Assembly: GCA_003971905.1 (NCBI GenBank)
Contig: RSEE01000068.1
Span: forward strand, 62,001 to 116,481
DNA length: 54,481 nucleotides
Direction of reading: 5' to 3'
Source of the DNA: Moniliella sp. 'wahieum'
Taxonomy: Eukaryota
In this document: in pieces, positions 6,039-49,426 of the stretch
Position numbering within the stretch: the first letter of the stretch is position 1
How the letters are laid out: the number at the start of each line of letters is the position of its first letter
Notes under the pieces: generated by a model
Database searches by the model: none
Seen by the model: the letters and a program-made list of their open reading frames with translations, nothing else
Told to the model about the DNA's origin: nothing
Translations under genes and position numbers: made by a program

Positions 6039-7045
6039 AGGCGCGGTAGTGGGGGGGCCGTTCCAGGCGCCTCTGCGCGCGCCCCTCGGTCGCATGAGGC
6101 GGAAGGGCTGTACTATTGATCGAATGATGCGCCTGAGAATCGGAGGGCCTGAGCGTGCTGCATTGGTCAGTCTCCCAAAGCGACATGACCAGCGACCTGC
6201 ACCAGGGGGGTTGTGGATCGAGGGGGTTTCTTTCTTCCCCAGCCGTTCGTATAGCCGAGCAGCAATGGACACTGAACATATGAACGCTGTGAACGTATAG
6301 TAGGCTCTTTGCTGGCGGTATTTCGCTTTGTCCTCTTAGGTAATAAGAAGGGCCGTATCTTCTTGGCGTGCATGTTGCTTCGCCCTGCCAGCGATGCCTG
6401 GCCTGGCTTTGCGCGGGCTCGGTTATCGATTATCGATCTTGTCTGCGAGCGGGCGCTCGCTGAGCACGGACATGTGACAAGGGAGATGCAATCCACGCTG
6501 GAGGAGCCGGGGCGCGGAACACCAGACGCGGAAACGCGAAAATGAGCGGAGCGGGCGGTAGGGTTGGCGCTGGCGTGGGGCGCGGCGTGGCTTGCGTGTG
6601 CGGCGGCCGTGCACGAGAAGGTTTCGCGCCGGCACGGGCGCAGTGTGGAGCGTGACCATTCTTCTGTGGCGGGCGCCGCACCACACCCCTGTCCACCTCA
6701 CCCGTCACCACCCCCCGCCGCCCGCACGGCGCCAGTGCGCGTGCGTTGGGGCCCACGCCCGCCTGTCTCAGCGGGCGCGCAGCAGGCGAGTGTCGGGCGG
6801 AATGTCACGCACGCGCGCTGCTCATGCGTCGCGTGGGCGGCAGCGTGGCAGCGTGTAGGGTTGGCCCAGGCCGCCCAGCCTGTCCACACTGCCCACACTG
6901 CCCACGCCGCCCGGCTGACGACGGACTAACCCCCTCGACACGCGACCAGCGCCTCGGCCTTTGCCCAACCCCCCCATCCATCCCACCCGACGACGACGCC
7001 CAGACCTCCAGCCTGTTGCACTGCGTCGCGCTCTCCCGCTGCGAC

Positions 7046-9548: not shown

Positions 9549-9684
9549 CATGAATCGCTTCGATCGCCTGGGGTGCGTAGTGCCTTAGGCGTTAGTATAT
9601 AGACTCCCGCACGGCGCCCGTGTGGGTGGTTGCCCACCGGCTGCCCTTCCCACCGCCACCGCCCATAGCATGCCCCCACACATA

Positions 9685-9724
9685 TAGCATCCGCAGCATG
9701 TAGCATCCGCAGCATGTAGCATCC
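9685..9724 (+). repeat. 2.5 copies of the 16-bp unit TAGCATCCGCAGCATG, followed by an ~18-nt poly-C run (9731-9748)
   Basis: Read directly: units at 9685-9700 and 9701-9716, partial unit at 9717-9724. Confidence 0.9.
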
Positions 9725-9756
9725 AGGCCACCCCCCCCCCCCCCCCCCACCTCCCC

Positions 9757-12081
9757 ATGTCCCTCGCCTCCCCCCTCAGCGCCGTGGCCGTCGCGACAAC
9801 TACCCCGTCGCCCCCCGCCCCCCCTGCGCGCCACCACCACCTCCCCGCTCTGCCCGCACCCCACTCGGCGTGCCCGCCGCCCCACTCGGCACCCTCGCCG
9901 CAACCAGAGCCAGCTGCACAACACGCGCCGGACACCCACCACGCTTCCTTGGCCCACGCCCTGGCATCCGCCCAGCTGGTCGCGCCCTCGGTGTCCTCGT
10001 GCCGGCCGTGGTGCAGCCCCGCGCTGCCCCTGCGCTGCTCACCCGCCCCCCTCGCGCCGGCCGCATCGGGAGGCGGGTGGGTGCCGAGCGTTGGGCCGTC
10101 GGTGGCGTCGGTACCGCTTAGCTTTGGTCCGGTTCCGTCGCTCGGCCCGGACCTCGCCCTCGCCCTGCCGCCCGCGGCGAGCGGGGTGGGAAGCGGGCTG
10201 CCACTGCCTGAGCCCAGTCCCGCACCTGCGTTGCTTGCTGTTGATGCGTGCTCGACGCTGGAGGGCGAGGCGCGGGCACAGGCGACGGCCATCATCCATT
10301 CCCTCGTCACTGCCGCCTGGCAGTTGGGTTGGGACCGGACTACGGTCGCCAGCCGCATCACCGAGCAACTCAATCAGCGCCTGGGCCGCTCTTGGTCGAC
10401 GATCGTCGGGCCGTCGTTTGCGTTTATGTGCGGGAGCGGCCGCACAGCTTGCTCAACGTCCGTACGTGTGCGCCTCGTTGATTTGCTTGTTGCGTGTATT
10501 GTGTGTGTGTGTCGTGCTGGGCAAGGGTTGACTGTGTACATGCGTGACTAGGGATTGGCGACTGGTGGGTGGCCGCGTGGAAGGGCGAGGTGGGCGTGGG
10601 CAAGTCGAACAATAAGGAGGTGGAGTGTACCGTGTCAAGGGATCCAGACCGAAGTGAGCAACAAGGTGATGGAGGTGGTGCGAGACTCGATGGCGCAACA
10701 AGCGTCCCTGGTCGGTGCCGAACTTACGTACTTCCTCGCACATACTCCAACGGCTTCACCACTCCTCGGGCCCGGCTGGACCTGGTACCCGAGACGAATG
10801 TCAGTCTCTACACGCAGTTCCCGTCGGCCTTCTGTTTCCGTGCGGGCGAACAGGATTGGACCGTGTGGAACGAGCGGGACGCCAGCACGCATTCCCTCGG
10901 CTCCCTCAGCACCCTTGCTTCCGGCATGGTCTTGACTGGGACGGTGTCCGTGACGTCCGTGACTTTAGTCTGTCCGGCTTGTCGGCCTCGCAGAAATCGT
11001 ACGCCACGTCGTCAGCCTCGACGACGCTGGTGCAAAAGTGCAAAACTACGTGGCGAGCTACGCGCGCAAGTGCAAGCCGGGCGGGAACGGTGCAGATTGG
11101 CTCGTCGCACATGACTGATGCGTCGTATCACAATGCGGTATTGGATGTTTCCCTCGCGGCGATCGCCGAAGCGTCGGCGACGGTGGACAAGCAACAGGCC
11201 ACCACCCTTGTCACCAACCGTCTGCGTACCCTCTTTGGTCCGGCCTGGCACGCCCACATTGCCACCGACACCTTTGTGCCGGTGAATGCGCCGGCGCTGC
11301 AGGTGCTCACCTACCGTCTGGACGACAAGTTTGTCACGCTCTGGCAAGCGCAAGCCACCGCAGTGCAGACCACCTCCGAACCCGAGACGGAATGGGAATG
11401 GAGATGGGCCACGCGCAGCCCTGCAGCACAATAACAATGGCAGCAGCCTAACGTCCACCCACCAGGCCCTGCAGCACAACAAGCCTAGCCTGCTCAAACA
11501 GGCAGCGGGAGTAGCTGGTGGAGCTGCGATGGCCGGGTTGGGGTATGGACTGTACAAGCACCATCAGCATACGACCACAACGACCAGAACCCTCCCCCCG
11601 CTCAGCCGGATCTGGATACAGTCCACCAAACCCTCAATACACCACACGCACCCAAACGGGACCCAGCACGACCAGCGTTGACGCCCCCGGCACCGTGGCC
11701 GTTGGAACGTTGGCTGCGGCGCACAACGCCATCCGGGTCGAGAATCTACGCTGGCGGCAGCCGAGCAGGCCGTGCTGCTAGAGGTGGCGGCGGAAGCGGT
11801 GGCGTGGCACTCGATGGCCGCGCGCACGTTTGCGCTCTGGCTCGAGTCGGCGCTGGACCGGACGATGAAGTGGGATGGGTGGCACGTTGTGGTGGAACGT
11901 GGCGAGTTTTGGCGCTTCGTCCTACCCGGACTACCGCGAGGCGCTGAACCGCATCCGCTTTCGCTGGGACGACAAGTACGGACGGTGTGGCAAGGCGCGC
12001 AGTCCACGGGCCAGGGCCAGGGCCGGGGTGTCGTGGACGCGCTCCGCGCACCTCGGTGACGGATACGTTTGTGTGGAGTGA
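9757..12081 (+). CDS. Protein with about four tandem dynein light chain (LC8)-like domains (paralogue A); intron 10462-10551; frameshifted
   Basis: Repeated helix-helix-'G..W.h.h.G'-beta pattern of LC8: 'VASRITEQLNQRLGRSWSTIVGPSF...IGDWWVAAWK'; 'VSNKVMEVVRDSM...LLGPGW...FRAGEQDWTVWN'; 'VQIGSSHMTDASYHNAVLDVSLAAI...VTNRLRTLFGPAWHAHIA...LTYRLDDKFVTLWQA'; 'LLEVAAEAV...WLESALDRTMKWDGWHVVV...FRWDDKYGRVWQ'. Confidence 0.65.
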
Positions 12082-19564: not shown

Positions 19565-19826
19565 GGCGTGCAGGCTGGGGAAGAGAGGGGAGTTGGACTT
19601 GTAGAGAAAAATAACCCAGTAGTGGTTGAGCGTTGAGGGCATCAGAAAAAAAATGGCGGAACTGCGGCCATTCCGCCTCGGCTGGGCTGTCACCGCGGGC
19701 GCGCCAGGACGGGGGTATCTGGCATGACCTATGAGCTCCCCGCCATTCTCTTTCCTGCCATATTGTCTCGACAATACAATGCCATGGCTGTTGGGCCCTG
19801 AGGATCACTAAGGAACCATGAAAAAC

Positions 19827-20906
19827 TTACTTCCAAGCCAGAGCCTTGCGAGCCATAGCCAGCGCGCCCTCCTGGTTTGTTTCCTCCGATAAAGCCCGAG
19901 GCGTGGACGAAGACGCCGCCAGGAATGCCCGTGACGTCCGACAGCTGGTCATCCCGCACACCGCGCCACGGCTCGGGGAGAGCCTTGGGGAGATGAAGCT
20001 CGACTCGGAGACGGGACCGCTTGAATCCGCCAGCTGCCGCCTCGTCCGGGAAGACAACGTAGAGGATGTTGTTGTCCTCGGTCAACCCCAGCTTCTTCCC
20101 GCCGAAAATGTGCGACTTTCCAGTTGACGTACTCGGTGAGGAGGAGAATGCGCCCATCGGCGTCGGGAACGAGCTCGGTGCGCTTGGCCAGAGCCGCGTC
20201 GACAGTTCCCGAGCAGGTAGCCAGGACTTCATCGTCCACTCGACGCGGTTCCAGAACTGGTCCCAGCCATAGCGCTGGCCTGCTCAAAGCGCTCCATCCG
20301 GCTCGCATCGTTCTTCAGCTCGGGCTCGTTCCAGGAAGGGTTGAGCGTGCCCACGCGCGCGCTCAGATCCGTGCGCGACTGTACCGCGGCTCCCCCATCA
20401 AAACGCCGAGATGCATTGTCAATCCGTCGATGGCCTGCACAAAGTCGTCGTACAGCTTAAGCCACAGTTCCCCACCAACTCCTGTCCAGCTTGGGAAAGT
20501 TGTGGGCGAGGATTTCTGGCCAAAATGCCTGTCCTTGCGTTAGCATCGAAGGGCAATCGGTCGGCGCGCCGGGAGCTGGCGCGCGCACGGGAGGAGTGAA
20601 GGGGAGGGGGGGGGGAGGTACACATACTTCCAAGTCAGACCGGCCGAAGAAAGCTTAATGGCGTGGTTGTCGTCAAAGGTGGTGTTGAACCCGCGCTGGT
20701 GATGGTCGAACCGTTGCTTTTCCGGCTCGTACGTGGCACCTACATCGACCACAATCGTGCCGCGGTCGATGAGTGCCGGGTCACGAGTGCGGGTGAGGGG
20801 GAGCTGACTGAAGCGGCAGACGGCGCAAAAGCGATACGGCCAGCGCCTCGTCAGCGTGAAAGTCGCCCGAGTGGGTCACGATTCCGAGGGGCTCTTGGGC
20901 GGACAT
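19827..20906 (-). CDS. MYG1: MYG1 family (UPF0160) metal-dependent exonuclease; at least one intron
   Basis: 'IVTHSGDFHADEALAV', 'VVDVGATYEPEKQRFDHHQRGF', 'KLSSAGL', 'LPEPWRGVRDDQLS...IPGGVFVHASGFIGGNK', 'GALAMARKAL'. Confidence 0.93.
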
Positions 20907-21369: not shown

Positions 21370-22140
21370 TTCACTCTTCTGCCCAAAGGTACGTCTCCTT
21401 CCCCACGCCCCCGTTCCCGATACTGACTTATGTCTAGCACGCGCTGATCCAAGCAGCGAGCAAGCTGCGGCTCAGTTCCCCCGCTTCTGCTACCACGAGC
21501 GCCTCAACGTGGCCGGTAATTGCTGCATGTGTCTGATAGAGAGCAATGGAGGAGGCGCTGGCGGGCTCACCTGGATTTGCGCAACTGTTCCAGGCCGCCC
21601 AGAGGGCCATGATCGTGGTGGGCAGTGCAGTACTGGAAAATGCGGATGGCAAGCACATTCTTAGCGGTATTGCCTAGCACATCAAGGATCGCTTTGCCCA
21701 ATTTTTCATGCCTGAATGGACGGACTGAGCATCCTGCAACGCACGGCCTCCCGCAACGACGCGCGAGCCCTCGGCCGTGCTCCTTCCGAGGCAGCAAAGA
21801 AGACGGAGCCCAAGTTCATGTACCTGCTCAACGCGACCGACTTTGGCCCTGCCTCGATTCCCGAGGAGGCGTTTGCAGTGTACCAAGGACATCACGGCGA
21901 CATGGGGTCGCAGTATGCGGATGTGGCCCTGCCCGGTGCTGCTACACGGAGAAGAACTGATTGCGGGCGGCAACTTGGCGGAGGGAATGGGTGTGCCATT
22001 GATCAACCCGATCAAGAACTTTTACCAGACCGGCCATCAGTCGTGCATCGCCGACGATGGTCAAGTCTGTCAAGGCTTTCGGAACAGCTGCCGCGGGAAC
22101 CGATCGAGGAGCCGCTGCCGCCGCACGCCCACCTTGTGTG
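21370..22140 (+). pseudogene. NDUFS1: Internally deleted relic of NADH:ubiquinone oxidoreductase 75-kDa subunit (NDUFS1/NuoG)
   Basis: '[21 protein letters not shown]' (N-terminal 2Fe-2S motif) joins directly to C-terminal 'MIVVGSAV', 'SILQRTASR', 'KFMYLLNA.DF...VYQGHHGDMGSQYADVALPGA.YTEK', then 'PIKNFYQT..ISRASPTM'. In-frame TAG at 21675-21677. Only ~0.75 kb, versus ~2.2 kb for a full gene. Confidence 0.8.
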
Positions 22141-22560: not shown

Positions 22561-24150
22561 ATGTCCGCCGAGCAGCCGTGGAACCTGTACGAGGGCCACC
22601 GGGTGCCCGCTGACCTGCTCCCGCGCCCCATCCCCGGCCCCACCTCTCAATCCAGCATCCTGGCCAGCGGCCAGTCCTACCTCCTCTTCCCGCGCTTCCG
22701 CCTCGACAGCGGCACGGTTTTGACCAATGCCGTCGTGGCGTACAAGACGTGGGGCGAACTCGACCCGATCAGCAAGGGAAACGCGCTGGTTGTCACGCAT
22801 GCCCTGACAGGCAGTGCCGACGTGGAGGACTGGTGGGGACCGCTTTTGGGCCCCGGCAAGGTCTTTGACCCGACTCGCTACTTCATTGTCTGTGCCAACG
22901 TTCTTGGCTCCCCCTATGGCTCGTCGGCGCCCACTACCCACAAGGGGGGCGAGCTGACTGACCGTGCCTCGCCCACTGCGAAAGATGGGTCGGAGTGGTG
23001 GGGGCCTGACTTCCCGGAAACTGTGGTGCGTGACGATGTGCGTCTGCAGAAGGCGCTGTTGGACTACCTTGGTGTCCACCACGTGGCCGCCGTGATTGGG
23101 GGTTCGATGGGTGGCATGGCCGTGCTGGAGTGGCCCCTGTGCTTCCCTGTGCGCTACTTTGTGCCGGTCGAATGAGCAAGAGCGGTACATTGATGCCATT
23201 GTGCCGATCGCCACAGCTGCCTCGCATTCGCATGGGGAATTAGCTGGGCCGAGACCCAGCGGCAAGCCATCGCATCGGACCCAGCCTACCACGACGGATA
23301 CTACGATCCTGCGACCCTCCGCGGTCTGGACTAGCGGCGGCTCGTATGGCCGCCCTGCTTACCTACCGCAGTCGCGAGAGCTTCGAATCTCGCTTTGGTC
23401 GGCGTACGGGCAACAAAAAGGCGCCGCCCGTCGCCGCCCAAGGAGGCTCCCAAGGAGGATGGGAAACTCCGGACGGGCGAAATGGCCAACGAGCCCCCGC
23501 CCAAGAACGTGTTTAGTGCACAGTCGTATCTGCGCTACCAGGGTGACAAGTTTGTCAAACGGTTTGACGCCAACTGCTACATGCACCTCAGCCAGAAGAT
23601 GGACTCGCATGATGTGGCCCGCGGCCGTCGTACGTGGGGCTCGGCTGGCGGACAGGAGCACGAGTGGGCCGGTTTCTCGATTTCTGGTGGCGAACTGGCC
23701 TCGGTGGGGTCTGCGCATGCGGACAATGTTCCGTTTGGCTCGGACGACGAGCACGCAGCCACGGTCCAGTCCGTTTTGGGAGTCCTCTCGACCGGCAGCA
23801 CGCGTTTTGGGGCGCTGTCGCCTGCTGTGCACATTGTCTCGATCGAATCGGATGGTCTGTTTGCTCCGCCTGAGCAAACCTTTCTGGCCAACAGCATCAA
23901 GGGAAGCGCATTTGACTCGGTCCGCAGTTCGGATGGGCACGACGGCTTCCTGCTCGAGTTTGAGCAGATGGACGAGTTTATCCAACGCTTCCTTCATGCC
24001 CACCTTGCGTCGATTTACGCCACACCTCAGGGCGCAGGCTGGACCAAGTGGCATGATTGGCCCCAAACTGCTGAGGCGGGTCCGAACCACAAGGTCAAGG
24101 AGTCGACCTTGGCGAGGTGGAAGACCCGACCCGCTGGTAACTTTGATTAA
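22561..24150 (+). CDS. MET2: Homoserine O-acetyltransferase (alpha/beta hydrolase); frameshifted
   Basis: 'VAYKTWGEL', 'HALTGSADVEDWWGPLLG', 'ANVLGSPYGS', 'IGGSMGGMAVLEW' (catalytic Ser), 'FSAQSYLRYQGDKFVKRFDANCY', 'SSDGHDGFLLE'. Confidence 0.95.
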
Positions 24151-25119
24151 CCCAGCAGGGCCGCCCCATTCTTCAAATCGTTTTACCTGCTCCCAACATA
24201 ATGATATCAGAGCGCTCTGAGCCGCTCCACTCTAGACGACGTCCAACCGTTCGCCTTCACCCACTGTGTATCCAACTTGCATCTGTACTTTGCGCATGTA
24301 TCAACTACCATGTCCGCGCGTCCCGCGTGTATCCAACTACATGACACTTCCCAATCATCATCATGATATCCTCTCTTACCTTTATACAGCCTGCAACGCG
24401 CAAAGATTAGTTCCTCCTAATATACATGCTGTACATAGGTTTGTTTTCCCTCTGAACAGGTGTAGAAGAACCCCTTGCCGTCTCGCACCAAGATCAGCGC
24501 TCAATGGCGGATAAGGACCACAACTGTGTCGTTTTCCTCGTTTCGAGTTGTCTTCGGGGTTTCTTGCGCCAGCTCCGGGCCCTCGAGAGAGGCGAGTTCA
24601 GCAGTGGACTTGGCCTGGCCCGGTTGCCATCCGTAGTCATTTCGTATGGGATCTCATTCACTTGCTTTCGCCTCTCCATTTCCAAGTGCCCTTCTTCCCT
24701 CCCTAGCCTATATGTATACCGCGCGCGTCAAAACCGATTTTCGCGCCTCTCCCTTTTTGGCCATTGGCATGCCTTGCCCACATGCATTGACCATAGTTAG
24801 TCGACTCGACAAGAACACTGCAGTAAGTCGCCCTTGCCAGGTTTTCTTCGCCCCGCTTGCCGCTGATTCCCCACCCATAGACTTGAAAGCAGAACTAGAT
24901 AGCAGATAGCAAAACAGGCATGGGGGCACTCTGTACGGAGATAGTTGACTTGCAGTCAAGTATTTTTTCCCAGGCACAATTCGCAGCCTTCTTTGGCGGT
25001 TCGGTGGCGACATAAGATTGCTTCCATCGCATTCGGTTTTGCGAGAACCGCAAGCCCTATCCTACAGTCCATTCGCTTGTTTCGCCATCTTTCCCACCAA
25101 CCGTTTGTTTGTTGCAACG

Positions 25120-26108
25120 ATGGCAGTCCCTGAACGACCTGAACCGATGCCATGGTCCTCCGTGTGCGCGCTTTCAATCGCTTCTATACGCACCAAGCTG
25201 GCGTACTCGACCGGTACTTGGGATCAGATCTGAGCCTGACCGAGATCCGTATTATGTACGAGTTGGCTCATGCCGGTCTACCCCCGGCACAGATGGCCAC
25301 AGGTCCCAGTCCCGGCTTAACCTCCACTCAGCTTTCCACTCAGCTCGGGTTGGACGCCGGCTACCTTTCCCGCCTGCTCAAACTTTTGTCTCCCGCGGCT
25401 GGGTGGCGCGCACGCCGGACCCAACCGACAAACGACGCGCACTGCTCCATCTGACTCCCTCGGGATGGAAGCATATGCTCCTCTGCTCCACAAGTCCAAT
25501 GAAGAGGTCGCTGCTCGCCTCGCCCCCTGCCTCCTGATCAGCAAGGTGAGCTGGCTCAGGCCATGGATACGATTGAACGTGTCTTTTCCATGGCCCCACC
25601 GGCGCTGGAGCTACGGAGCCAGGGCCTGGCGATCTTGGCTGGGTAGTGTCCCAACACGGAGAGATATACGCCAAGGAGTACGGGTGGGATGCGTCGTTTG
25701 AGGCACTGGTCGCCGACCTCGCGGCTGGGCTGCTCCGCACCCTCGACCTGCGTATGAACGTGGATGGATCGCGCACCTAAACGGACAGCGGGGGGGATCT
25801 ATCTTCCTTGTCCGTTCCCAGCCTGGCGTCGCCAAGATTCGCCTCCTGCTCCTCACCCGGGCCGCACGGTATGGGCCTGGGCTCCACCCTGGTAGATGAG
25901 CGTTGGCGTTTGCTCGCTCCAAGGGCTACACCGCGTGGAACTTTGGACACACTCTTGTCTCCAAGCTGCACGCACCCTCTATTCGCGTAGGGTTCCAGCT
26001 GGTGGAGGAGAACCCGTACGTTGGGTTTGGCGGCACGAGCTGGGGGTGAGCAATGGTCGTTGGATTTGGAGGCCGCGCCTTCCTCCCCCTCGGAGCACCA
26101 ACGTGTAA
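25120..26108 (+). CDS. Bacterial-type bifunctional MarR winged-helix / GNAT acetyltransferase fusion; intronless; frameshifted
   Basis: 'VRAFNRFYTHQAGVLD.YLGSDLSLTEIRIMYELAH', 'LGLDAGYLSRLLK', 'PDPTDKRRALLHLTPSG', 'PGDLGWVVSQHGEIYAKEYGWDASFEALVA', 'ERGWIA', 'AKIRLLL', 'GLGSTLVDE', 'VELWTHSCLQAARTLY', 'GFQLVEE', 'EQWSLDL'. Confidence 0.88.
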
Positions 26109-26840
26109 TTAGAAGGCGATTCCGTTCCCTTCAGCTGCCCTTGCACCACTTTGGCGAGGTGCTAGTCACGCCTCAAGGAGGCCATCATTTGACACCACTC
26201 ATCTTGCTTTCTCCTTCTCATGCTTTCTACTAGAGATGTGCTCCAGACTTTTGTGCTAATACTTGCTATGTTTCCCATTTTAAGGAAGCACTCAACTTCT
26301 TGAGTTTAGGTCCCACTAGTCCGTCGCAGAAAACGCCTGTGTTGTATAGCTTTTCCCCTTACAACGCTAACCTCGGGCAGGACTTCCCCACAATACTCAT
26401 AAGAATTGGCATTGGAGAATAACACTACTACTGTGGCCGCACAACCATAATGATCCCCAAAAATGGAAGGAATACTGCAGGCGGAGACAATAAATGGGAG
26501 AGAGTTATGATCACAAGTTGCAAGTATGGCGAGAGCGGTCTGTTGCGCAGGCGCTAACTCGGCAGCTAAGCTAGCTGTGCAGTTATATGTCACCGTCCTA
26601 TGGGAGTTGGAAACGTTAAAGCGCGTCTCGAAGCACCCGAGTACATAAACAACTAACGAGGGACAGCCTAACAAGATGGTTGGTACACGACCCACCCTAG
26701 CACTTATGCCCGTGTTAGGGAACTGCTGATGGATACATAAGTGCATTGCGCAATTGTGGACCTTGGCACCCAGGCCCCAACCCGACTCAGGCGTCATGAG
26801 AGCTGCCAAGGTAAAGGCGCTGTTATTTAGAAGGACAGTT

Positions 26841-27912
26841 TCAATCCACTCGGATGTAGCGCTCGCCTTCAGTCGTAAACGTCGCGAGGACACTTTCGAT
26901 TTCCGCCAGATCCTCCTTCGAGAGGGTAATGGTCGCGGCGGCTACATTCTCGTCAATGTGCTTGATGTTGGTCGAACCGGGGATGGGCAACACATCCTCT
27001 CCTGCGCAAACAGCCAGGCAAGCGCCACCTGTCCGGCGTGTACCCTAACTTGTCTGCAATCTGTAAGTAGAAAAAAAACGTCAGTTCTTGCTCTTCGTCG
27101 GTGTGGAAGGGGCGGGAGGTGGGAGGGAAAGGGGGTCGGGGCGGGTACGCACAGCCTTGACCTTGTTGACCAGAACCAAGTTCTTGGGGAAGTTCTCCTC
27201 GCTAAAGCGGGTTGGTTGGAAAGACGGAAGTCGTCAGGCGTAAAGTCCGCGCGGGACTTGATCTGACCCGTGAGGAAGCCACGTCCCAAGGGCGAGTAAG
27301 CAACAATTGCCGTGCCGTTCTTCTTGGCCCAGTCGTAGATGCCATTGGTGAAAATGTTGGGCGTAAACAGACTAGCTTCGACTGAAGCGCATCAATGTGA
27401 ACGATCTTTTCGGCGCGTTCCAGCTGCTCCAGCGAGTACTCCGAAACACCCACGTACTTAGTCTTGCCGGCCTCCTTGAGCGCCTTCAAGCCCTCAAGCG
27501 TGGGCTCATCGGCTCCACCGCCCGGTGGGCATAGTACAGATCGACGTGATCCGTGTTGAGCTTGAGCGACTTTTCGAGGGCCTGGAGCGTGTACTCGGTT
27601 GAGGGCGTAGTGATGCCCCTTTCCCCCGTTTCGGAGATGGAGAAGATATGCTTGGTAGCGAGGAAAAACGAGTCACGCGCCTGGATGCGCTGGAAAAAGG
27701 AGCCAATCTGTTCTTCGTTTTCTCCCAGCGAAGGACGCGTGCTGTAGATGTCGTGGTATCAATGTGGGTTACCCCTGCTTGATGAGATGGGCCAGGACAG
27801 CGTCGACTTCGGGCTGGGTTTTGGGCGCGCCGTAGAAGGCGGCGAGGGACATCAACCCGGCACCCAGGTTGGACACGGACGTTGTGCCGATCTTGCGTTG
27901 CGGAAGAGGCAT
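26841..27912 (-). CDS. Aldo-keto reductase, YakC/AKR13 (pyridoxal-reductase-like) type; at least one intron (~27062-27155)
   Basis: 'MPLPQRKIG', 'FFLATK', 'DHVDLYYAH', '[14 protein letters not shown]', '[14 protein letters not shown]', 'GQVALAWL', '[14 protein letters not shown]'. Confidence 0.88.
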
Positions 27913-33439: not shown

Positions 33440-36400
33440 GGGGTCAGCACGGCATGGACGACAGCAGCCCCTGCGTCGTAGCCACCGCTGCCATCTTCCA
33501 CCATGTTCCGAGCCAGGCGTTCCAGAGCGCTTGACGTTCACGCCAAGTCACTGGGGGGGGGAGGCTTGGGCCGATCCGGACCAAGTAGCGATTCGAGTGC
33601 TTTGAGCGCTTTGGCCAGCGCGTAGCACGCGCGTGCCAAGCTGGCCTTATCGCCGGCGCTCACTCTCGCCTCCGGCGCGCGTACGCTCCTGGACAGCGAC
33701 CAGGACGTCACATGGTCCTGCCAAGGCGCTCAGCACCCGCTCCGCTTCCGGATCGGTGCCCTTCTCCCGACCGCGTAGCCGAGGCAGATGGTCCACCGAA
33801 ATGGCCTGGATGGCCATGGCAAACGTGACGATCTGTCCCAAGGAACTGGTCAGCGCCTCACCCGTTGGTCCCGTTGGTCCTGCACTGCGCAGCAGGCCGA
33901 GCAACTCGGACACACTACCAAAAATGGCACGGGTTTGCACCTCAATGTACCGTCGCAACTCGAACGTTTCCGCCTTGGGACGTTGGTGCACGGGCAAGGT
34001 GCCTTGCGACCAGACCGACATGCGGCCCGCCCCGGACGTCGCCGTGCTCGTTCGTGCTCCTGCTGGCTCCGCACTCGTCTCATCCAGCTCGTCGTCCCCG
34101 TCCCGCGGAGCCGGCGGGGTGGTGGCAACCTTGGCTCGAGCGGAGGCGAACGCGCCTCGTCCCGTTTGGGCAGCGATCGGTCCTGCTCGGCCCACGAGGG
34201 CGAGACGGGATTGGAGGTAGTAGCACAGTGGTATCGGGCGAAGGCGGGGCCGAGGGGGATCTTTGTGGGAGTGAGCTTTCGTATTGGCGGGCGGGAGAAG
34301 AAGGCCGTGTCACCGGCCGAGGTGGAAGTGGAAGCGGACGAAGTGGAGGCCAAGGGGTGCTCGGGATCGGGATCGCCATCCAAAGTCAAAGGCGTCCCCA
34401 GCATCTGGCCCAATTGGTCCAACAAGGCTTGCACCGCCCTGTCGAGGTTTCCTTGGGTCGTGGGCGTAGGGTTGTCCCCCCGTTCCCGCACCGAGGAAAT
34501 CAGGTGCTCCAACACGGGCCCCACCGCCGCGCAACGTTCCGCCGTCTGGCCGCGGCACACAGTCGTCACAGCCTTGGCGACTTGTTGAACGGCGAGGAGA
34601 ACCTCGTCAGAGGCACCTACATGGTTGGCCGCTGCAGCTCCTCCACACTTGCCAACAGGTAAGCCACGTCGCTGCTCGTATCGGGCAGGGCGCTTCCGTT
34701 CCGCCCGGGGACGAGGCGAGGCGGATAGTAGCGCGCAAAGCACGATATTTGCGTTGCCACGTCCGAAGTTGTCGTTGGGCCTCGTCGAGTTGCCGTCCTT
34801 GGCGCTCATTTCGCGCAGCAGTTCGTCGTTGGCCAGGCCTAGGGCTTGCATCTCTGCCATCAACGCTGTTACTTTTTCTCGTGCCGCCAGCACGCTCGGG
34901 GGAATCTCCACGGCAGCGGGGGCAAGGCCAACTTGGTCTCCAATGCAGCCTTGTTCGATTCCAACTGGGCGCGCACCTGACTCTCCTCTTTAAGCGCATG
35001 CTGGCATTTTGTCAAGTCAGCATGGGCAACTGAAAGATCCGAACGCAACTCGGTTTCGGTGTGACGAGGGATTCCAGTTGTGTTCGAACGAGGTTCAACT
35101 CTGTCCTCAGATCCTCTTTGCTCCCCGCAGGCTTGTGGCGGAAGGGCCAAGGCAGTGTTCGAAGGCGGACTCGACGCTCGGCGCACTCGGCTCAGAGGAC
35201 GCAGGAGCCATTTGAGCCAGCTCCAATTCCAGGGCAGCCATCGCATCTTCGGGCTGCTGTCGCGTATCTGTAGGCGATACTGCATTCTCGCGAGCCTGCA
35301 TGCCTTGCTTGTCCCACCCCCATGATTTCAATCCGCCAATTCCCCTCAGTGGGGGGGGGGTAGGCCAAGCCGACTTGGCTTCGCCTGGGGGTGAGGGGTC
35401 GAGCGGCGAGGCGTCCGAGTCTGGCGTAGTCTGCGTAAGGGAAGGGCGGGGCGCCGGATGGCTTGGGTCCCAGGTAAGTGAGGTGGGCGTGGTGGATGAA
35501 TCGTCACTTTTCCTGTCGAGGAAACGGGGCGATTGGAAGAAGGCGGGGCGCCCATAGCGCTGGCGGTCGCAGCGCCTGCACTGGCGGATGCGGGCGGGCC
35601 CGGAGCCGAGCGGGAAGCAAGCGGCAACGCGGCGACGGGACGTTCTACCGACGTTTCCCGCGACAAGACGCCGCCCGAGGAGGATTCTCCCCACGAGAAG
35701 CGCCAGGTGCCATGGGACGAGCGGGTAGAGTGCCGCGGCCCGGCAGCTTCGTCATGGGACCCTGGTTGAGGCGAGGAGGAAGTCCCCAACAGCAGCAGGG
35801 GTGGGATCAGGGTAGGGACGAGAGCGATCCGGCCGATCTGGTAGCTCGTGGACAGAGTCGAGGCGTTCCGAGGCAAACTGTCCGAGAAGGTGCTGCTGTT
35901 GTGACCCGAGTGAGCATAGGCCGGGTTGATGGGCGGCAAAGGAGGGACGGTAGTGTCGTCGGACAGCCGCCAAGGCTGGTGGGATGGGGTGAAGGAGGAT
36001 TGGCTGGTGGCCGGTGAGGACAGGCCCAGGGACCGCCAAGAGGTAACCGCGTCGGGTTCGGACGTCTGGGCGAGGATATGTGGGTAAGAGTCAGAATGCG
36101 GTTCAAGCATCTGTTCTTCTAGGCCCGAGCCGTCGTGGCCGTGGGCGTTGCCGCGGGGTCGTGCTCTGCGTCGGATCTGTGTCCGGCTCGGCGGGGGCGT
36201 AGGGCACTTCGATCACAGCATCCTCGACGGTGGCCTTGGAAGGGGGGAAGGATGTGCTGGGTGCTGACGCTAGGGGCGGCCGAGGCAGGCGTAGTTGGGG
36301 AGTAGGGGAGGGAGCGAAGGCGGGCGGGGCCGGGGGTGGGGGTGGGGGCCGAGGGTGGGACGGGGGTGGGCGGGGCAAGATGGGTTGCGGCGCTCAATCT

Positions 36401-37003
36401 CGAGGTAGACGTCGGCGGCAAGGTCCTTGAAGCGGCCGTTGGGCAGAGCAGAGAGTTTGGTGCGCGTGGCGTTGCGTTTGGGATGGTAGGTGGGCACGGG
36501 CGGCAGGGCGGGGGGGGCGGGGGGGGCGGTAGGAGTGGTGCGCGCGCGAGCGAGGGCGTCGCGGCGGAGAAGCTCGTCGTAGACATCGGCTGAGCTCGCC
36601 AAACTGGTTGGGGGAGAGGCGGAGGAGCTTGCCGCGGGCAGCGCGGCGGTCGTTGGGCGGGGCCGAGGGCGGGGGCAGGTGGGAGGGCGGGTAGGGGGCG
36701 AGGGAGGCATGGAGGTTGTGGCGCCTGAGGAAGGCGTCGAGCGCAGCGTGGTGCTCGGCGGCGATGCGCTGGAGACTGCGGGTGCTGCGGCGGCGGGTGC
36801 GCTGGCGGGCGGGCGCCGGGGCGGCGCCGGGCCGGGGCCGGGCGGGGGCGCGGGAGGGTCGGCGGAGGGCGAGTGGGTGCGGCGGAGGGCAGAGAAGCTG
36901 AGGCCGCTGCTGACGCTGGCGCGCATCTCGCGGAGCGTGCGGTGGGTGTGGAGGGGCGAGGCGGGTCCGGGCCAAAGCCAGCCCCAGCGGGAGCGGCGTT
37001 CAT
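33440..37003 (-). CDS. SPA2: Polarisome scaffold Spa2-like protein (two GIT/SHD repeats, coiled coil, C-terminal helical bundle); ends approximate
   Basis: 'AARGKLLRLSPNQFGELSADVYDELLRR' and 'YHPKRNATRTKLSALPNGRFKDLAADVYLEIERR' (SHD-I repeats). C-terminal 'ELRRYIEVQTRAIFGSVSELLGLLRS...LGQIVTF...AYALAKALKAL'. Confidence 0.85.
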
Positions 37004-37595
37004 GGGCGGGGGGCGGCGGCGATGGAGGGGAGGGCACTGCGGGTGGCGAGCGTGCCCTTGGAGATGGGCGCGGCGGCTGTGGGGCGGCGGCTGGCGGTGC
37101 CGCCTGCTGGCTGCATGCATCACACTCGCCGTGGCGCCGGCAAGGGGCCGCTGCTTACCTCAGCACGCGCCGGGGGGTGCGCTGAACGTTTCACATCACC
37201 GCTGGGAATGGGGGTGCCCCACATTGTACGTAGCTGGGCCCACACCAGGTATATTTAGCCCCGCTCATCCGTCGGCGCTCGGCGGCCACCGTTGGTTGCA
37301 CGCACACGCGGCGCCGGGGCAAGTGGGCATAACCGTTAACGCCATGCGCAACGCCGCCTCCCACACCCGTCCACCGGGTGTAGAGCCACATCCGCATGCA
37401 GTGCAGTCAAACCAACCAAGAGTGTGTGTAGATATGTCGGCGCCTCTTCGGCTGGGTTATAGAGACGCCCCCCGCTTGGCCAGGGGCAGTCATAACCCCC
37501 CCTGGGTGTGGTGCTGGCTAGCCTCCAGATGGGGCGGGCAGGATCCCTACCCTCGCACCTGCCCCCCCTCCTTTTCCCCCCACTGTCCCACGCGC

Positions 37596-40096
37596 ATGTC
37601 GACGCCTTCCCCCCTCCCCCAACCCGTGGCCGAGGCGTGCGCCCCCCCCGCCGCGAGCCTGCCAGTGGTCCAGGCCGCGCTGCAGCAAGCCGAGGCGGAC
37701 CGCGAGGTGGCGCTGGCCGAGCGGCGGAAGCGTGTGGGAGCGGGACGTGGCGTGTGCAGAGCGGGACAGTGCGCAGCAGGCGCTCGCGCTCGCCGAAACG
37801 CGCGGGCACCAAGCCGCTCACGAAGCGCAGACGCAGTTGGAACGGATGCAGAAGGCGTATGACCAAGCCAAAGTCGAAGCGCACGATGCGTTGGGGACGC
37901 GCGATCTTGCACGAGCCGAGCGCGATGGGCGCGGAGCCGGAGAGACGAGGCGGTGGCAGCGCAGCACGCGTTGCAGGACGAATTGCAGAGCGCGCAACGG
38001 AGCGCGACGAGGCGCTCCAGTGGGCCGAGCGCGCCCGCCAAGACCAAGAGGCGCACAAGCACGTCGAAGCACAGCGCCAACGTGAGCTAGACCAGCTTCA
38101 GCAGTCGCTCCGCCAAGCACGGCAACGACGTGGCCCAGCGGAATGAGGAGCTGGAACGGGTGCGCGCCCAGCACGCCAGTCTCGAAGCAGCTCAGCTCCG
38201 GACGGTCCAGCGTTTTCCCAGGCCCAGGCCCAGATCACTGCCCTGGAGCAAACCCTGGCTGAAACGACGAGCCAAAGGGAGCAAGCGGACCAAACGTGGT
38301 CCAGCACGGTCCAGGAGGGGGAAGCGGCGGTACGTCAAGCGCAACAAGAGCGGGACGAAGCGATGGCCACCGTCGCGCGTCAACGCAAGCAGATGGAGCA
38401 AGTGCAACGTGCACTTACCCAGGCCAGGCCACTCACGAGCGGACCGGGCCACGTGGGACACCAACTCGCGCACGAAAAGCAGGACAGGGAGCGGTTGCAG
38501 CACCAGCTCACCCAACGGCACAAGGGTACTGTGTTGCGCCAGGAGCGGGAAGAGGTGGAGACCGAGTTGGTTGCCGCGCGCACGGAGCGGGATGAGGCGG
38601 TGCAGAAACGCACGAAGTGCAAGCCACCGCAGAGCGAACGTTGAAGAAGACGCAGGAGCAAGGCGAGCAGTGGCATGCCCAGCTGGCCAAGGTGGAGAAG
38701 GCATGGGAGGAAGCGGTGCGCCTGGGCCATCACGCCAAGGACGAGCGCGATGATGCGCAGAACCAGCTCCATACCACGCAACGAGAACTATCAGTGCCAA
38801 GCCAGGCTGACCACCGCCGAGGAGGCGAGCAAGAAGCTTCGCGAGGAGAAGGAAGTGCAGGAGAAGCAATGGAAACGTTCGCTTGCCATCGCGCACGAGG
38901 GTCGGCACAAGTGGGCGGTCAAGTTCCGGCTGAGCGAACAGGGCCGGCAGCAAGGCGAAGAGGAGTTGCTGTCCGCGTTGGACGAACGGGACCAAGCCAA
39001 GGCCAGTGCGCAAGCCGCGGAGCACGCGCGCCGACACGGAGCGCGTGTTGAACAATGTCATGCAAGCCCGGGAGTTGCTAGCGCAGCAACTGGCCAAGGC
39101 TGAAGATGGGACGAAGCGGTGCGCAAGGCACAGGCCACCTATACCGCCCAACTAGCTCTTTCACAGGGCAAGGGACGAAGCAGCTGATGCCAAGAACCAG
39201 GTCAATCAGCTTACCCAGCGCATTACCCATCTCGAGGCCCAGCTGAGCCAGGCTCAGTCCGATCACGCCGTGCTAAAGGGCGAGCGCGATCGCGCCCGAT
39301 GCCTCCACCTGGAAGAGCAGGACGAGTTGGAGGAGGTGCGGGACCGTTGGGAAGCGGCGCAGCTGGCGTTCGAGTTGGATACCAAGGCGGCCTGGGCCCA
39401 GGTCGCATCGGCGGACCAGCATGCGTCTCGTCTCAAGGAACAAATTACCAAACTGCAAGACCAAGTCCGGCGGCTGCGCAACCCCGAATCGTACGTGGAC
39501 GGGCCGGATGATGAGGACGGATACCTATGCAAGTTGATTGTCTCCCGGGCCCAGGCGCTGCAGCGAGCGTACGAGTCGGAGGAACGGGCTCAAGAAGCAC
39601 GTGAACAATTGGTGGATGTGTTGGAACGGGCACGCCAAGCGGAGGAAGACTTGGAACGGGTAAAGAAGAAGGCGGTGGAGGAGCAAGGTCTGCTGCGTCT
39701 CTCTCGTTCCACTGGACATGCCCCTTCCCCTCCGCTGACAGATCCGGTCTGGACCCGTCTGTTGACCACAATGGGCGAGCGAGATGATCTCCGGGCGGCA
39801 GTCAAGACCCTTGTGGCTCAGTTGGATCAGTTGAGGGCGAAACGAGGAAGACAGCAGCAAGGCCACGTAGCTGGACACGACCCAGTTCCCGCAACACCTC
39901 CTTCTGACGGAGTGAAACTAGCAGGCCCCAGGACGAACCAGCAACATGGTCTGTGCTCCTCTCCGAGCTGAACCGGCTGCATCATGAGTTGGACGTGGCG
40001 CAGCGGGGTCAGGCCAAGGTCCAGCGGGAGCGCGAGTGGGTGCGCAACAAGAATGTGGGCGCACCGGCGCCGGCCGACCGGTCTTGTATCTACTAA
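37596..40096 (+). CDS. Long coiled-coil protein of unknown family with recurring ERDxA motifs; frameshifted; end approximate
   Basis: E/Q/A/R/K-rich heptad-like frames across the region: 'AERDSAQQ', 'TERDEALQ', 'TERDEAVQ', 'DERDDAQN', 'DERDQAKA', 'LKEQITKLQDQVRRL'. Confidence 0.6.
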
Positions 40097-40413: not shown

Positions 40414-42679
40414 TTACCACTGACCGGGGTCGGCGGGGCGCAGTTCGCGGTAGAGCGGTACCCAGGCACGGTGCCGGGCCAACTTCTCCATTTCCTCGAG
40501 CGTGTCGGGCAAGTCGTCGGCCCGAGCCAGCCCTTCCTTCTTGGCAGCCAGTGCGACGGCAGCCGAGACCTTCATGCTGACGTTGCGCATATCGGTCAGG
40601 TCGGGCAAGAGGGACGCATCCGGGTCCTTGAGCGCCGGGCTGAGCGAAGCAATCGCATCTACCCCGGCGACAATCATGCTGTCGGTCAAGTGCTTTGCCT
40701 TGGCCAAGATCACGCCGCCGCCCAAGCCAGGGAAGCCAAGGGCATTGTTCGATTCGGCCACCGTGTACATCTTGTTCGAGTTGGGGATGGGCACGGGGGG
40801 GAAGGGGGAGCCGGTAGCGATCAAGGCACGACCATGCGACCATTCGTGATCTCGTCCGGCCGGGCTTCGGAGAGACGGGACGGGTTGGAGAGGCGGTAGG
40901 ATGGCGGGGCGCTCGCAGTGCGCCGACATTTCCCGCACCACAGCCTCGGTGAACGCCCCCCCCTGGCCCGATACGCCAATCAGAACAGTAGGTTTCACTT
41001 GCTTGACCACTTCCAGCAGGGGGAACCCATGCCCCTCTTTGGGCGCGGGCCAGTTGGCCACCTCTTCCTTCTCTCGGGCAAAGGGACTTGCGCTTCGCGC
41101 AGCTCAACCTCGCCCTTGACCAGCAACCCTTCCCGGTCGATGAGCCACAGCCGCTTGGCAGCCTCTTCCTTACTCAGACCCTGGCGGATGGAAATGGCAT
41201 CACGAATTTGGGCTGCAATGCCGAGGCCGGCAGTGCCCGCGCCAAAGATAATGTACCGCTGGTCCTTAAGCGTCGACTTGGTCACCTTGACCGCCGACAA
41301 GACCGCAGCCAGCGTCACAGCCGCTGTGCCCTGGAGAAAACGAAAACAGGTGAGTCTGGGTTCAGGGGATGGGAATGGGAATGGGTAAGGGGACGTGGCC
41401 AGTTCCAACATACCTGCTCGTCATCCCAAAAGACATTGTACTGCGGCCGGTACTTGAGCAGCAGACGGTGGGCATTTTGGGTTCCAAAGTCCTCGTAGTG
41501 AAGCAACGCGTTGGGGAAGCAGGTGCTGGCTACGCTAGTGTAATCGTCCATAAAGGCATCGTACTCGGCACCACGCAGCCGAGGGTTCCGCCAGCCCAAG
41601 TACAACGGGTCGGCGAGCATGCTCGCATTGTTGGTGCCGACATCCAGGCCGATACTAAGCATGCGCTGCGGGTCAAAGCCGCCGCCGACGGCGTAGATGG
41701 TGTTCTTGCCAATGGCAATGTTAATTCCGCCAACACCTAATCGAAACGGTTAGCAGTCGTGTGGGATGGGTGCTACCAACCAAAAGAGCCGAGGAGAGAA
41801 GAAGAGAAGCGGAACACGTACCCTGGTCGCCAATGCCAGAATTCCTTCACTGTCTGTGCACGTCAGCAAATCCACATCGTCCGGTCCCAAGTGGCCGTAG
41901 TGCGTGATGGCGTCCTGGATGTACTTGCGTCCGGCGTCGCGGTCGCCACCAGAAGCGTCAATGGCAGCCTTGTACGCGGGTAGAGATGTAGGTGCCATCG
42001 GGGGGCGGAAGATGCGCGAGTAGTTGGTGATCGCAGACCCGACGACGGGGGTGTAAATGATGCGCAGGGTTTCCTTCAGGTTGCGGAACAGCAGCGCATA
42101 AAATAGAATCGCATTCTGGTCCTTCAATGAGCGCAGAAAGGTGTACTGCATAATGTCACCGTCGTCCTCATTGCCGTACTTGGCGATGCGTTGGCGCAGC
42201 TTGAGCTGGTTGTACGCCCGGTCCACCTGGGTGGACAGGGTGTGGATGCTGTGAGGCAAAAAGGGGCTGAGACCAAGCGACTCACGCTCGGCCCAACTGT
42301 GCGCGGCACCGTAGTTGCTCATCGGGTCTTCCAGCACCTCGCCCCCGCGCTTGTGGACATACAACACCGGCAGCGGCGGCGAGCCAGGCGGGTTGCTTGG
42401 GTGCACTGTGCGCTCGGACGAGGAGCCGGGGGCCCCGGCAAGCGCGTGGGGCGCCGGACGCGCACGACGCGACGGACCGTAGGGCTGCTCTTGTTTGGGC
42501 GCCGCAGCGCCTGCCTTGGTGTGCTTGGCCTCGGTCGCATAGCGACGACGATGGGCCGACGGGTCGGCAGCGGTGGTGGAGAGGGCACGCCGGGCAGCCA
42601 CGAAGACGGGAGGGGGCGCGCGGGCGGTGGTGGCCGCCGCGGCCGCGTGGACGGGGCGTGCGAGACGCGGGAGCAGCAT
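40414..42679 (-). CDS. MAE1: NAD(P)-dependent malic enzyme, mitochondrial precursor; 2 introns
   Basis: Arg/Ala-rich presequence 'MLLPRLARPV', 'IIYTPVVG', 'TDSEGILA', 'LDVGTNN...LADPLYLGWRNPRLRG', 'DDEQ|GTAAV', 'FGAGTAGLGIA', 'KPTVLIGVSG', 'ATGSPF', 'ESNNALGFPGLG'. Confidence 0.95.
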
Positions 42680-49420: not shown

Positions 49421-49426
49421 TATAAA
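49421..49426 (+). promoter_or_regulatory. TATA box of NDP kinase
   Basis: TATAAA ~60 bp upstream of ATG 49485, which has a CACCATG context. Confidence 0.55.

What the first reader, a model, noticed from the sequence alone, without database searches (positions are those of the whole stretch)
25120..26108. Bacterial MarR-GNAT one-component regulator in a fungal chromosome (candidate horizontal transfer)
Established: the fusion of 'RxFNRFYT...SLTE.R..YEL...LGLDAGYLSR' with 'PGD.GWVV..HG..YA.EYGWD..FEALVA...LWT...L.AAR..Y' is a widespread bacterial family, and MarR regulators are not native to eukaryotes. Seen: the full two-domain gene, without introns, lies between typical fungal genes. It carries an extra low-complexity loop 'GLPPAQMATGPSPG' inside the HTH region, suggesting residence time in the host. 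Retention of the DNA-binding domain raises the question of a prokaryotic-type regulator working in a nucleus.
Basis: partly seen in the sequence, partly recalled or inferred. Interest (0 to 1): 0.72.

Follow-up and report, generated by a model that had tools for sequence, protein, structure and literature searches.

The report
Bacterial MarR-acetyltransferase gene in noisy fungal assembly
A gene of a bacterial regulator-plus-acetyltransferase family sits between ordinary spliced fungal genes, most likely through an old gene transfer, but this assembly has so many missing bases that it cannot show whether the gene still works.

Summary
The homology is real. Window 25149-26068 (+) aligns end to end with bacterial MarR-GNAT fusion proteins (168 of 289 identical to P0002), between MET2 and an aldo-keto reductase (AKR). 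It is not an open gene as assembled: the longest ORF is 100 aa and the alignment needs 10 frame switches, with no stop codon on the path.

The same breaks occur in host genes of this window: AKR 7, PDS5 8, malic enzyme 5, MET2 1-2. Earlier notes of this scan on other pieces of this genome report the same noise. They did not report this gene. So "dead transfer" cannot be concluded. Apart from the breaks, the copy keeps 76 of 85 conserved columns, like intact fungal homologues (75-83).

Bacterial origin is well supported. The copy falls in a 98/96-supported clade inside a Comamonadaceae-rich bacterial family, together with intact, already annotated homologues from Cutaneotrichosporon and Vanrija.

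Verdict: a new member of a known kind, bacterium-to-fungus transfer. Whether it is alive is undecidable here, and any regulator role in a nucleus is untested. Interest is moderate to low.

The parts
25149..26068 (+). Whole region homologous to bacterial MarR-GNAT fusion proteins. It is read in three frames with 10 frame switches and no in-path stop codon.
   Evidence: Frameshift-aware alignment: 168/289 identical to P0002, 157/286 to Cutaneotrichosporon cavernicola P0086, 160/269 to Ramlibacter P0001. tblastn, (only copy in the window).
25152..25607 (+). MarR-type winged helix-turn-helix half, starting at ATG 25152. It includes the recognition-helix motif LGLDAGYLSRLLK and the wing GWVARTPDPTDKRRALLHLT.
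   Evidence: Pfam MarR_2 E 9.8e-5 and MarR E 0.019 on the fragments, both below gathering score. 36 of 40 conserved columns of this half are kept.
25275..25316 (+). Low-complexity stretch GLPPAQMATGPSPG. It makes a net 12-residue insert relative to bacterial homologues, in the loop between helix 2 (YELAH) and the first HTH helix.
   Evidence: Alignments. Helix positions come from the AlphaFold model of homologue P0112.
25613..26068 (+). GNAT acetyltransferase half (PGDLGWVV ... GMGLGSTLVDE ... ELWTHSCLQAARTLY ... GEQWSLDL).
   Evidence: 40 of 45 conserved columns kept. Pfam found nothing on the short fragments. The acetyl-CoA loop R-G-x-G-x-G is cut by the break near 25867.
25384..26044 (+). 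The 10 frame breaks, at about 25384, 25458-25470, 25526-25532, 25609-25624, 25743-25758, 25852-25867, 25902, 25931, 25989 and 26032-26044.
   Evidence: (three references agree within a few codons).
22645..24147 (+). Upstream host gene MET2 (homoserine O-acetyltransferase). It carries 1-2 frame breaks of its own.
   Evidence: NCBIfam TIGR01392 E 1.5e-50. Direct frame switch at about 23313. Alignments.
26856..27912 (-). Downstream, convergent host aldo-keto reductase gene, with a 92-nt GT-AG intron (27061-27152) and 7 frame breaks, each as if one base were missing.
   Evidence: 159/316 identical to P0260, 0 stops. Related references are named fungal proteins from Penicillium and Moniliophthora.
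24148..25148 (.). Upstream spacer of 1.0 kb. GC is 0.53 for 24001-25000, lower than the coding flanks.
   Evidence: No flanking repeats of note.
26069..26855 (.). Downstream spacer shared with the 3' end of the reductase gene. After the end of homology there are stop codons at 26106-26108 and 26110-26112 in two frames, and only at 26231-26233 in the last homologous frame.

Best explanation
This is a single-copy, intronless gene of the bacterial 'bifunctional helix-turn-helix (MarR) regulator / GNAT N-acetyltransferase' family. It entered a fungal chromosome by horizontal transfer from a Burkholderiales-like (Comamonadaceae-type) bacterium and has been there long enough to lose the donor's codon bias and gain a 12-residue loop.

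The 10 frame breaks are mostly or wholly single-base gaps of this draft assembly, not mutations. In the organism the gene is probably one open frame of about 310-320 codons.

Inferred, not shown: the protein is an acetyl-CoA-dependent acetyltransferase acting on a small amine or amino-acid-like compound. Its MarR half serves as dimerisation and ligand or DNA-binding module, as in bacterial one-component systems. Whether that half binds fungal DNA is open.
For: 1. Family membership and bacterial origin. E is 9e-16 for an 80-aa piece, and the listed hits are bacterial or unnamed apart from two Cutaneotrichosporon rows. The nearest named ones to the window copy are Variovorax, Polaromonas, Pseudorhodoferax and Ramlibacter, at 50-51% over 310-316 aa. 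In the careful tree of 31 rows the window copy sits in a 98/96 clade nested among bacterial rows.

2. Real chromosomal residence. The copy lies between MET2 and an AKR that has a 92-nt GT-AG intron. GC is 0.60, like the host. It carries the same kind of breaks as the host genes.

3. The breaks look like assembly noise. All 17 breaks in this gene and the AKR equal 1 or 2 missing bases, and there is no stop on either path. Essential or housekeeping genes of the same window are broken too: PDS5 has 8 breaks in 2595 nt at 685/864 identity, and malic enzyme has 5 in 1608 nt. Pfam coordinates force frame switches with no room for an intron in MYG1 at about 20815 and 20261. At the AKR's rate, 10 or more breaks here has P = 0.11.

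4. Constraint apart from the breaks. The copy keeps 76 of 85 columns that are at least 90% conserved in 49 bacterial rows (2 fall on breaks, 7 changed). The nine intact fungal homologues keep 75-83. The MarR half keeps 36/40 and the GNAT half 40/45.

5. Residence time. GC3 is 0.66, against 0.79-0.96 in six bacterial relatives.
Against: Break density is about three times that of the host genes taken together: 10 observed against 2.3-3.0 expected, P about 1e-3 to 1.5e-4.

GC3 of 0.66 is below all ten host coding stretches measured (0.71-0.87), as expected for relaxed selection.

The last homologous frame has no stop for 55 codons after the homology ends.

The arginine of the acetyl-CoA loop falls on a break.

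Pfam scores on the fragments stay below gathering thresholds.

No substrate, DNA target or expression was tested.
Confidence: 0.58

Rival explanations
1. Dead transfer: the gene was acquired from bacteria but is now a pseudogene, and at least some of the 10 frame breaks are real mutations on top of the assembly noise.
For: 10 breaks in 867 nt against 2.3-3.0 expected from host genes, P 1e-3 to 1.5e-4. GC3 of 0.66 is lower than all ten host coding stretches. No stop codon follows the homology in its final frame. End branch is 1.05 against a median of 0.35.
Against: No stop codon on the path. All breaks are 1-2 missing bases, the same signature as in PDS5, malic enzyme and the AKR. 76 of 85 conserved columns are kept, within the range of intact fungal homologues. 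The adjacent AKR is nearly as broken (7 in 951 nt), which points to a locally noisy patch. Root-to-tip paths of intact fungal homologues are as long as this branch.
Confidence: 0.3
2. Bacterial contaminant or chimeric join: the stretch is bacterial DNA mis-assembled into a fungal contig.
For: Only the bacterial affinity of the protein. No reads could be examined.
Against: This would need two joins within about 2 kb. The flanks on both sides are host genes, 1.0 and 0.8 kb away. GC3 of 0.66 is unlike the bacterial relatives at 0.79-0.96. Best identity to any bacterial protein is only about 50-58%. A 12-residue low-complexity insert is absent from the bacterial rows aligned.
Confidence: 0.03
3. 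Same transfer as in Trichosporonales, or fungus-to-fungus spread: the window copy and the Cutaneotrichosporon/Vanrija genes descend from one entry into fungi.
For: All lie in one 98/96 clade and share the ELWTHSCL signature. The AU test does not reject a clade of window plus nine fungal rows at 0.05 (p 0.053, lnL difference 7.4).
Against: The best tree puts three unnamed, bacterial-length proteins (P0074, P0126, P0201) closer to the Trichosporonales clade than the window copy is (95/89). Identity to the fungal proteins (44-50%) is lower than to many bacterial ones (50-53%). The window copy lacks the long low-complexity linker seen in the fungal homologue aligned and modelled. The p value is borderline.
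Confidence: 0.15

Closest known systems
Bacterial 'bifunctional helix-turn-helix transcriptional regulator/GNAT family N-acetyltransferase' of Comamonadaceae (Ramlibacter P0001; Variovorax L074/L077; Polaromonas L053)
   Same: Same two-domain order and length. The short interdomain linker is the same. Identity is 50-58% over about 290-316 residues, and 76 of 85 conserved columns are kept.
   Different: The window copy has a 12-residue insert before the HTH, GC3 of 0.66 instead of 0.79-0.96, a eukaryotic chromosomal setting, and a frame broken in the assembly. The bacterial family itself has no solved structure of the fusion, no NCBIfam equivalog, no conserved gene neighbourhood in the 10 loci inspected, and no functional paper in my searches.
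Trichosporonales homologues: Cutaneotrichosporon oleaginosum 'transcriptional regulator, MarR family with acetyltransferase activity' (P0121), C. cavernicola (P0086), C. spelunceum (P0093), Vanrija albida (P0122), V. pseudolonga 'YbfA-like' (P0123)
   Same: Fungus-resident members of the same 98/96 clade. They share the ELWTHSCL signature, and both domains are conserved (MarR half 35-39 of 40 columns, GNAT half 38-44 of 45).
   Different: They are intact ORFs of 322-365 aa, and the member modelled (P0112) has a long disordered linker. They are only 44-50% identical to the window copy and are not its sister in the best tree.
E. coli MarR and other stand-alone MarR repressors (PDB 1jgs, 3vb2, 2nnn)
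   Same: Winged HTH fold and sequence motifs of the N-terminal half (P0002 residues 30-110 match MarR, E 1e-7).
   Different: These are about 140-aa proteins without an enzyme domain. Here a GNAT domain follows.
Small-molecule and N-terminal GNATs (Brucella RimI-like 4jwp, Agrobacterium 2ge3, P. aeruginosa PA4866 2j8m, phosphinothricin acetyltransferases 1yr0/5t7d, SpeG 6cy6)
   Same: Fold of the C-terminal half of homologue P0112 (Foldseek E 6e-11 to 2e-9, TM-score by target 0.65-0.81).
   Different: 15-23% identity. None carries a MarR domain. The spread of hits does not single out a substrate.

Membership tests
MarR-GNAT fusion family (Pfam MarR_2/MarR + Acetyltransf_1, NCBI name 'bifunctional HTH transcriptional regulator/GNAT N-acetyltransferase') | N-terminal MarR-type winged HTH domain | tested here: met
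   Fragments hit MarR_2 (E 9.8e-5) and MarR (0.019), below gathering because the pieces are short. Alignment to full-length members gives E 9e-16. 36 of 40 conserved columns are kept.
MarR-GNAT fusion family | C-terminal GNAT domain on the same polypeptide, in the same order | tested here: met
   The region is colinear with P0002 residues 13-315. 40 of 45 conserved columns are kept. Pfam gave no hit on the 27-44-aa fragments.
MarR-GNAT fusion family | Acetyl-CoA loop R/Q-x-x-G-x-G/A (recalled GNAT motif A). In this family the loop reads R-G-L-G-L-G. | tested here: inconclusive
   G-M-G-L-G is present, but the arginine position falls on the break near 25867.
MarR-GNAT fusion family | Placement inside the family tree | tested here: met
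   Careful tree of 31 rows: the copy sits in a clade supported 98/96, nested among bacterial rows.
Functional (intact) gene | One uninterrupted reading frame with start and stop | tested here: inconclusive
   Not met in the assembly: 10 breaks and a longest ORF of 100 aa. But the assembly breaks PDS5 (8), malic enzyme (5) and the AKR (7) in the same way.
Horizontally transferred bacterial gene in a fungus | Nearest relatives bacterial; patchy presence in fungi | tested here: met
   Named fungi among the 240 listed rows of two searches are Cutaneotrichosporon (3 species) and Vanrija (2) only. The lists show the best 120 rows each, so fungi further down could be missed.
Horizontally transferred bacterial gene in a fungus | Physical linkage to host genes with spliceosomal introns | tested here: met
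   AKR intron of 92 nt with GT-AG, with fungal best references. MET2. PDS5 on the same contig.
Horizontally transferred bacterial gene in a fungus | Read-level support for the joins | not testable with these tools
   No sequencing run was listed and no genome is held.
MarR-type transcription factor (function) | Sequence-specific DNA binding as a dimer, released by a ligand | not testable with these tools
   Only conservation of the recognition helix and wing was seen.

The most novel reading that the evidence does not exclude
A prokaryotic one-component regulator (a MarR DNA-binding domain fused to an acetyltransferase) has been kept under purifying selection, DNA-binding half included, in at least two separate basidiomycete lineages. 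It acts in the fungal nucleus as a ligand-responsive DNA-binding protein. Repeated capture from one fungus-associated bacterial lineage (the P0074/P0126/P0201 group) would explain the shared clade.
Probability: 0.1. Interest if true: 0.75.

Novelty: new member of a known kind. Interest (0 to 1): 0.33.

Why it matters
Bacterium-to-fungus transfer of metabolic genes is common. Transfer and retention of a bacterial DNA-binding regulator is much rarer, and it raises the question of what a MarR domain does in a eukaryote.

The useful result here is comparative. Nine intact fungal homologues keep 35-39 of 40 conserved MarR columns, so the question can be tested in tractable yeasts such as Cutaneotrichosporon oleaginosum rather than on this error-ridden copy.

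For the scan, the practical point is that frame breaks in this genome cannot be read as pseudogenisation without reads.

Tried and rejected
1. Whole-genome search for other copies: no genome is held for this window.

2. Sequencing runs: none was listed for 24300-27300, and no RNA holder was listed.

3. My first reading was 'region-specific pseudogene'. It rested on the 771-aa PDS5 ORF and long MET2 ORFs looking clean. I rejected it when a 79%-identical reference showed 8 breaks hidden inside the PDS5 ORF and 7 in the AKR.

4. Host identification. The PDS5 search returned 4 unnamed proteins. Cluster look-ups gave no organism for them. An Atlas search with the MET2 piece was uninformative. 'Smut-related basidiomycete' therefore rests only on earlier notes of this scan.

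5. The nature of P0074, P0126 and P0201. The genome-contig scan found nothing above 48% identity in a full-length match. The metagenome scan found nothing above 45%. The cluster look-up and Atlas gave no source organism.

6. A 41-nt 'intron' (25303-25343) proposed by the intron-aware aligner with two of three references. I rejected it. It would delete TSTQLSTQ, which fits the family's first HTH helix pattern (SASELSRE, TATEIART). It needs an extra frameshift, and it is shorter than the introns seen here (52-92 nt).

7. Flanking repeats or a mobile-element signature: only short chance-level matches.

8. Conserved bacterial neighbourhood as a clue to function: none was found across the 10 loci inspected. 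Three Variovorax loci have a radical-SAM gene upstream. Three loci (two Ramlibacter, one Caenimonas) have a chromate-transporter gene downstream.

9. Literature. No paper on this fusion family or on the fungal copies was found with the terms. The passages read were irrelevant.

10. The careful 59-row tree did not finish. I report the quick tree from it and the finished 31-row careful tree.

Full report
**What is in the sequence.** The ORF list gives nothing longer than 100 aa on this strand (25152-25454).

I aligned the DNA to full-length homologues with a frameshift-aware aligner. The region 25149-26068 is colinear with a metagenomic bacterial protein: P0002 residues 13-315, 168/289 identical. 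It is also colinear with Ramlibacter P0001 (160/269) and Cutaneotrichosporon cavernicola P0086 (157/286).

- Reading it needs 10 frame switches (9 with P0001, whose alignment ends earlier).
- Seven switches look like one missing base, and three like two missing bases or one extra.
- There is no stop codon on the path and no intron is needed.
- It is the only copy in the window.

The homology is far beyond chance. The first 80-aa piece alone reaches E 9e-16, and 2838 of 3258 candidates pass E 0.001. Pfam on the short fragments gives only sub-threshold MarR hits and no GNAT hit.

**Are the breaks real?** At first I took them for decay, because a 771-aa PDS5 ORF and long MET2 ORFs looked clean. 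Earlier notes of this scan on other pieces of the same genome said the assembly is littered with single-base gaps, so I tested that in this window with references.

| Gene | Reference | Identity | Breaks | Aligned coding nt | Stops on path |
|---|---|---|---|---|---|
| AKR, 26856-27912 (-) | P0260 | 159/316 | 7, each one missing base | 951 | 0 |
| PDS5 | P0232 (C-terminal 884 residues) | 685/864 | 8 | 2595 | 0 |
| Malic enzyme | E. coli MaeA | 217/521 | 5 | 1608 | 0 |
| MET2 | two bacterial MetX (L046, L047) | 135/330, 136/346 | 1-2 | 1026-1056 | 2 and 1 |

- The aldo-keto reductase (AKR) also has one 92-nt GT-AG intron. The malic enzyme alignment has three introns.
- The PDS5 breaks were hidden because the wrong frames stay open in this GC-rich DNA.
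- The stops on the MET2 paths lie in a locally unresolved stretch.
- Pfam coordinates force intron-free frame switches in MYG1 at about 20815 and 20261, and NCBIfam coordinates force one in MET2 at about 23313.

So an essential cohesion gene is broken at 3.1 per kb. The four host genes together give 3.4 per kb. The MarR-GNAT gene has 10 breaks in 867 nt. That is more than expected from the pooled host rate (P about 1e-3). It is not more than expected from its direct neighbour, the AKR (P 0.11). The AKR is itself high against the other three genes (P 0.016).

This pattern fits a locally noisier patch of about 3 kb. It does not exclude some real decay.

**Signs of constraint.** I aligned the window copy with 49 non-redundant bacterial and 9 fungal homologues.

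- The window copy keeps 76 of the 85 columns that are at least 90% conserved in the bacterial rows. Two fall on breaks. Seven are changed, four of them conservatively.
- The nine intact fungal proteins keep 75-83.
- Both halves are kept in the window copy: MarR 36/40 and GNAT 40/45.
- The recognition helix LGLDAGYLSRLLK and the wing D-x-R-x(5)-L-T are intact.
- The G-x-G-x-G part of the acetyl-CoA loop is present, but its arginine falls on a break.

Against a live gene, GC3 is 0.66, which is below all ten host coding stretches measured (0.71-0.87). It is also far below six bacterial relatives (0.79-0.96). That argues for long residence and against fresh contamination.

**Origin.**

- The family is abundant in bacteria.
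- The nearest named relatives of the window copy are Variovorax, Polaromonas, Pseudorhodoferax and Ramlibacter, at 50-51% identity.
- Named fungi among the 240 listed rows of two searches are only Cutaneotrichosporon cavernicola, C. spelunceum, C. oleaginosum, Vanrija albida and V. pseudolonga. All five are intact and annotated. Four unnamed proteins group with them.
- The finished careful tree has 31 rows: the window copy, 9 fungal rows and 21 of the 49 non-redundant bacterial rows, chosen by me. In it the window copy, the nine fungal rows and three unnamed bacterial-length proteins (P0074, P0126, P0201) form a 98/96 clade.
- Inside that clade the window copy is excluded from the rest at 95/89. 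The 59-row tree (quick method only; the careful search did not finish) gave the same picture.
- Forcing the window copy and the nine fungal rows into one clade costs 7.4 log-likelihood units (AU p 0.053). One entry into fungi is therefore neither shown nor rejected.
- The clade shares the signature ELWTHSCL.
- I could not establish what P0074, P0126 and P0201 come from.
- I could not confirm the host's taxon. 'Smut-related basidiomycete' comes from earlier notes only.

**Residence in the chromosome.** MET2 ends about 1.0 kb upstream, and the convergent AKR ends about 0.8 kb downstream. The spacers have lower GC (0.52-0.53) than the genes. No repeat or mobile-element signature flanks the gene. 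A contaminant would need two joins in 2 kb, and would also have to show the host's error signature and a non-bacterial GC3.

**The insert.** After YELAH the window copy has 24 residues where bacterial homologues have 12. The last eight, TSTQLSTQ, fit the first HTH helix. The net insert is therefore the proline-, glycine- and alanine-rich stretch around GLPPAQMATGPSPG (25275-25316).

In the AlphaFold model of homologue P0112 (mean pLDDT 85.4), this position is the loop between helix 42-53 and helix 60-67. An intron-aware alignment offered a 41-nt intron here with two of three references. I reject it for the reasons given under Tried and rejected.

**How it probably works.**

- Shown: two conserved domains in the bacterial order, joined by a short linker.
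- Shown for a homologue: a MarR fold, a disordered linker and a GNAT fold. The nearest solved relatives of that GNAT fold are small-molecule and N-terminal acetyltransferases (RimI-like, PA4866, phosphinothricin acetyltransferases, SpeG). TM-scores by target are 0.65-0.81 and identities 15-23%.
- No solved structure has the fusion. No NCBIfam equivalog covers it. Its bacterial neighbourhood is not conserved in the 10 loci inspected.
- Inferred: an acetyl-CoA-dependent acetyltransferase whose MarR half dimerises it and may couple ligand sensing to DNA binding. The strong conservation of the MarR half in nine fungal proteins suggests that half is still used in fungi, but nothing here shows that it binds DNA.

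**Literature.** Searches on Trichosporonales and horizontal transfer, MarR-GNAT fusions, MarR transfer to fungi, MarR with Cutaneotrichosporon, and YbfA gave nothing on this family or its fungal copies. I saw only the search listings, and I read passages in three papers that proved irrelevant (PMC11254643, PMC5025739, PMC12770482). That MarR regulators are not native to eukaryotes is general knowledge I did not test.

**Verdict.**

- The transfer interpretation is supported.
- The 'full gene' and 'regulator in a nucleus' parts are not established.
- The window copy is a new member of a known kind. It is best followed up by re-sequencing and by experiments on the intact homologues.

Noticed in passing
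window 27-2633 (+), 40525-42364 (-), 26856-27912 (-), 22645-23994 (+), 19732-20875 (-): Host genes PDS5 (8), malic enzyme (5), AKR (7), MET2 (1-2) and MYG1 (at least 2) all carry frame breaks equal to 1-2 missing bases, with no stops on the PDS5, malic enzyme and AKR paths. Long ORFs hide many of them because the wrong frames stay open in this GC-rich DNA.
   Followed up: yes
window 21540-22138 (+): Two pieces match Pfam Molybdopterin oxidoreductase (PF00384, profile 166-312; E 0.017 and 1.3e-10) between MYG1 and MET2. This may be a fragmentary complex-I 75-kDa-type or other molybdopterin-fold gene. Its extent and integrity were not worked out.
   Followed up: no
window 7001-10000 and 36001-38000: Stretches of 70-73% GC. 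The second has a GC skew of 0.40 at 36001-37000. Long ORFs lie on both strands and have no Pfam hit.
   Followed up: no
P0074, P0126, P0201 (database proteins): Three unnamed, bacterial-length MarR-GNAT proteins group with the fungal copies rather than with the named Comamonadaceae members. P0074 and P0201 share the ELWTHSCL signature, while P0126 reads ELWTQSVL. Their source organisms could not be found, and they may mark the donor lineage.
   Followed up: partly
L074, L077, L078 (Variovorax); L057, L059 (Ramlibacter); L064 (Caenimonas): In the three Variovorax loci the family member lies divergent from a large radical-SAM gene (Radical_SAM_N + DUF3362). In the two Ramlibacter loci and the Caenimonas locus a chromate-transporter-family gene lies downstream. 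No neighbourhood is shared across genera.
   Followed up: partly
window 49059-50059 (+): The nucleoside diphosphate kinase gene is split by a gap of about 65 nt between profile positions 47 and 45, which reads as an ordinary intron.
   Followed up: partly
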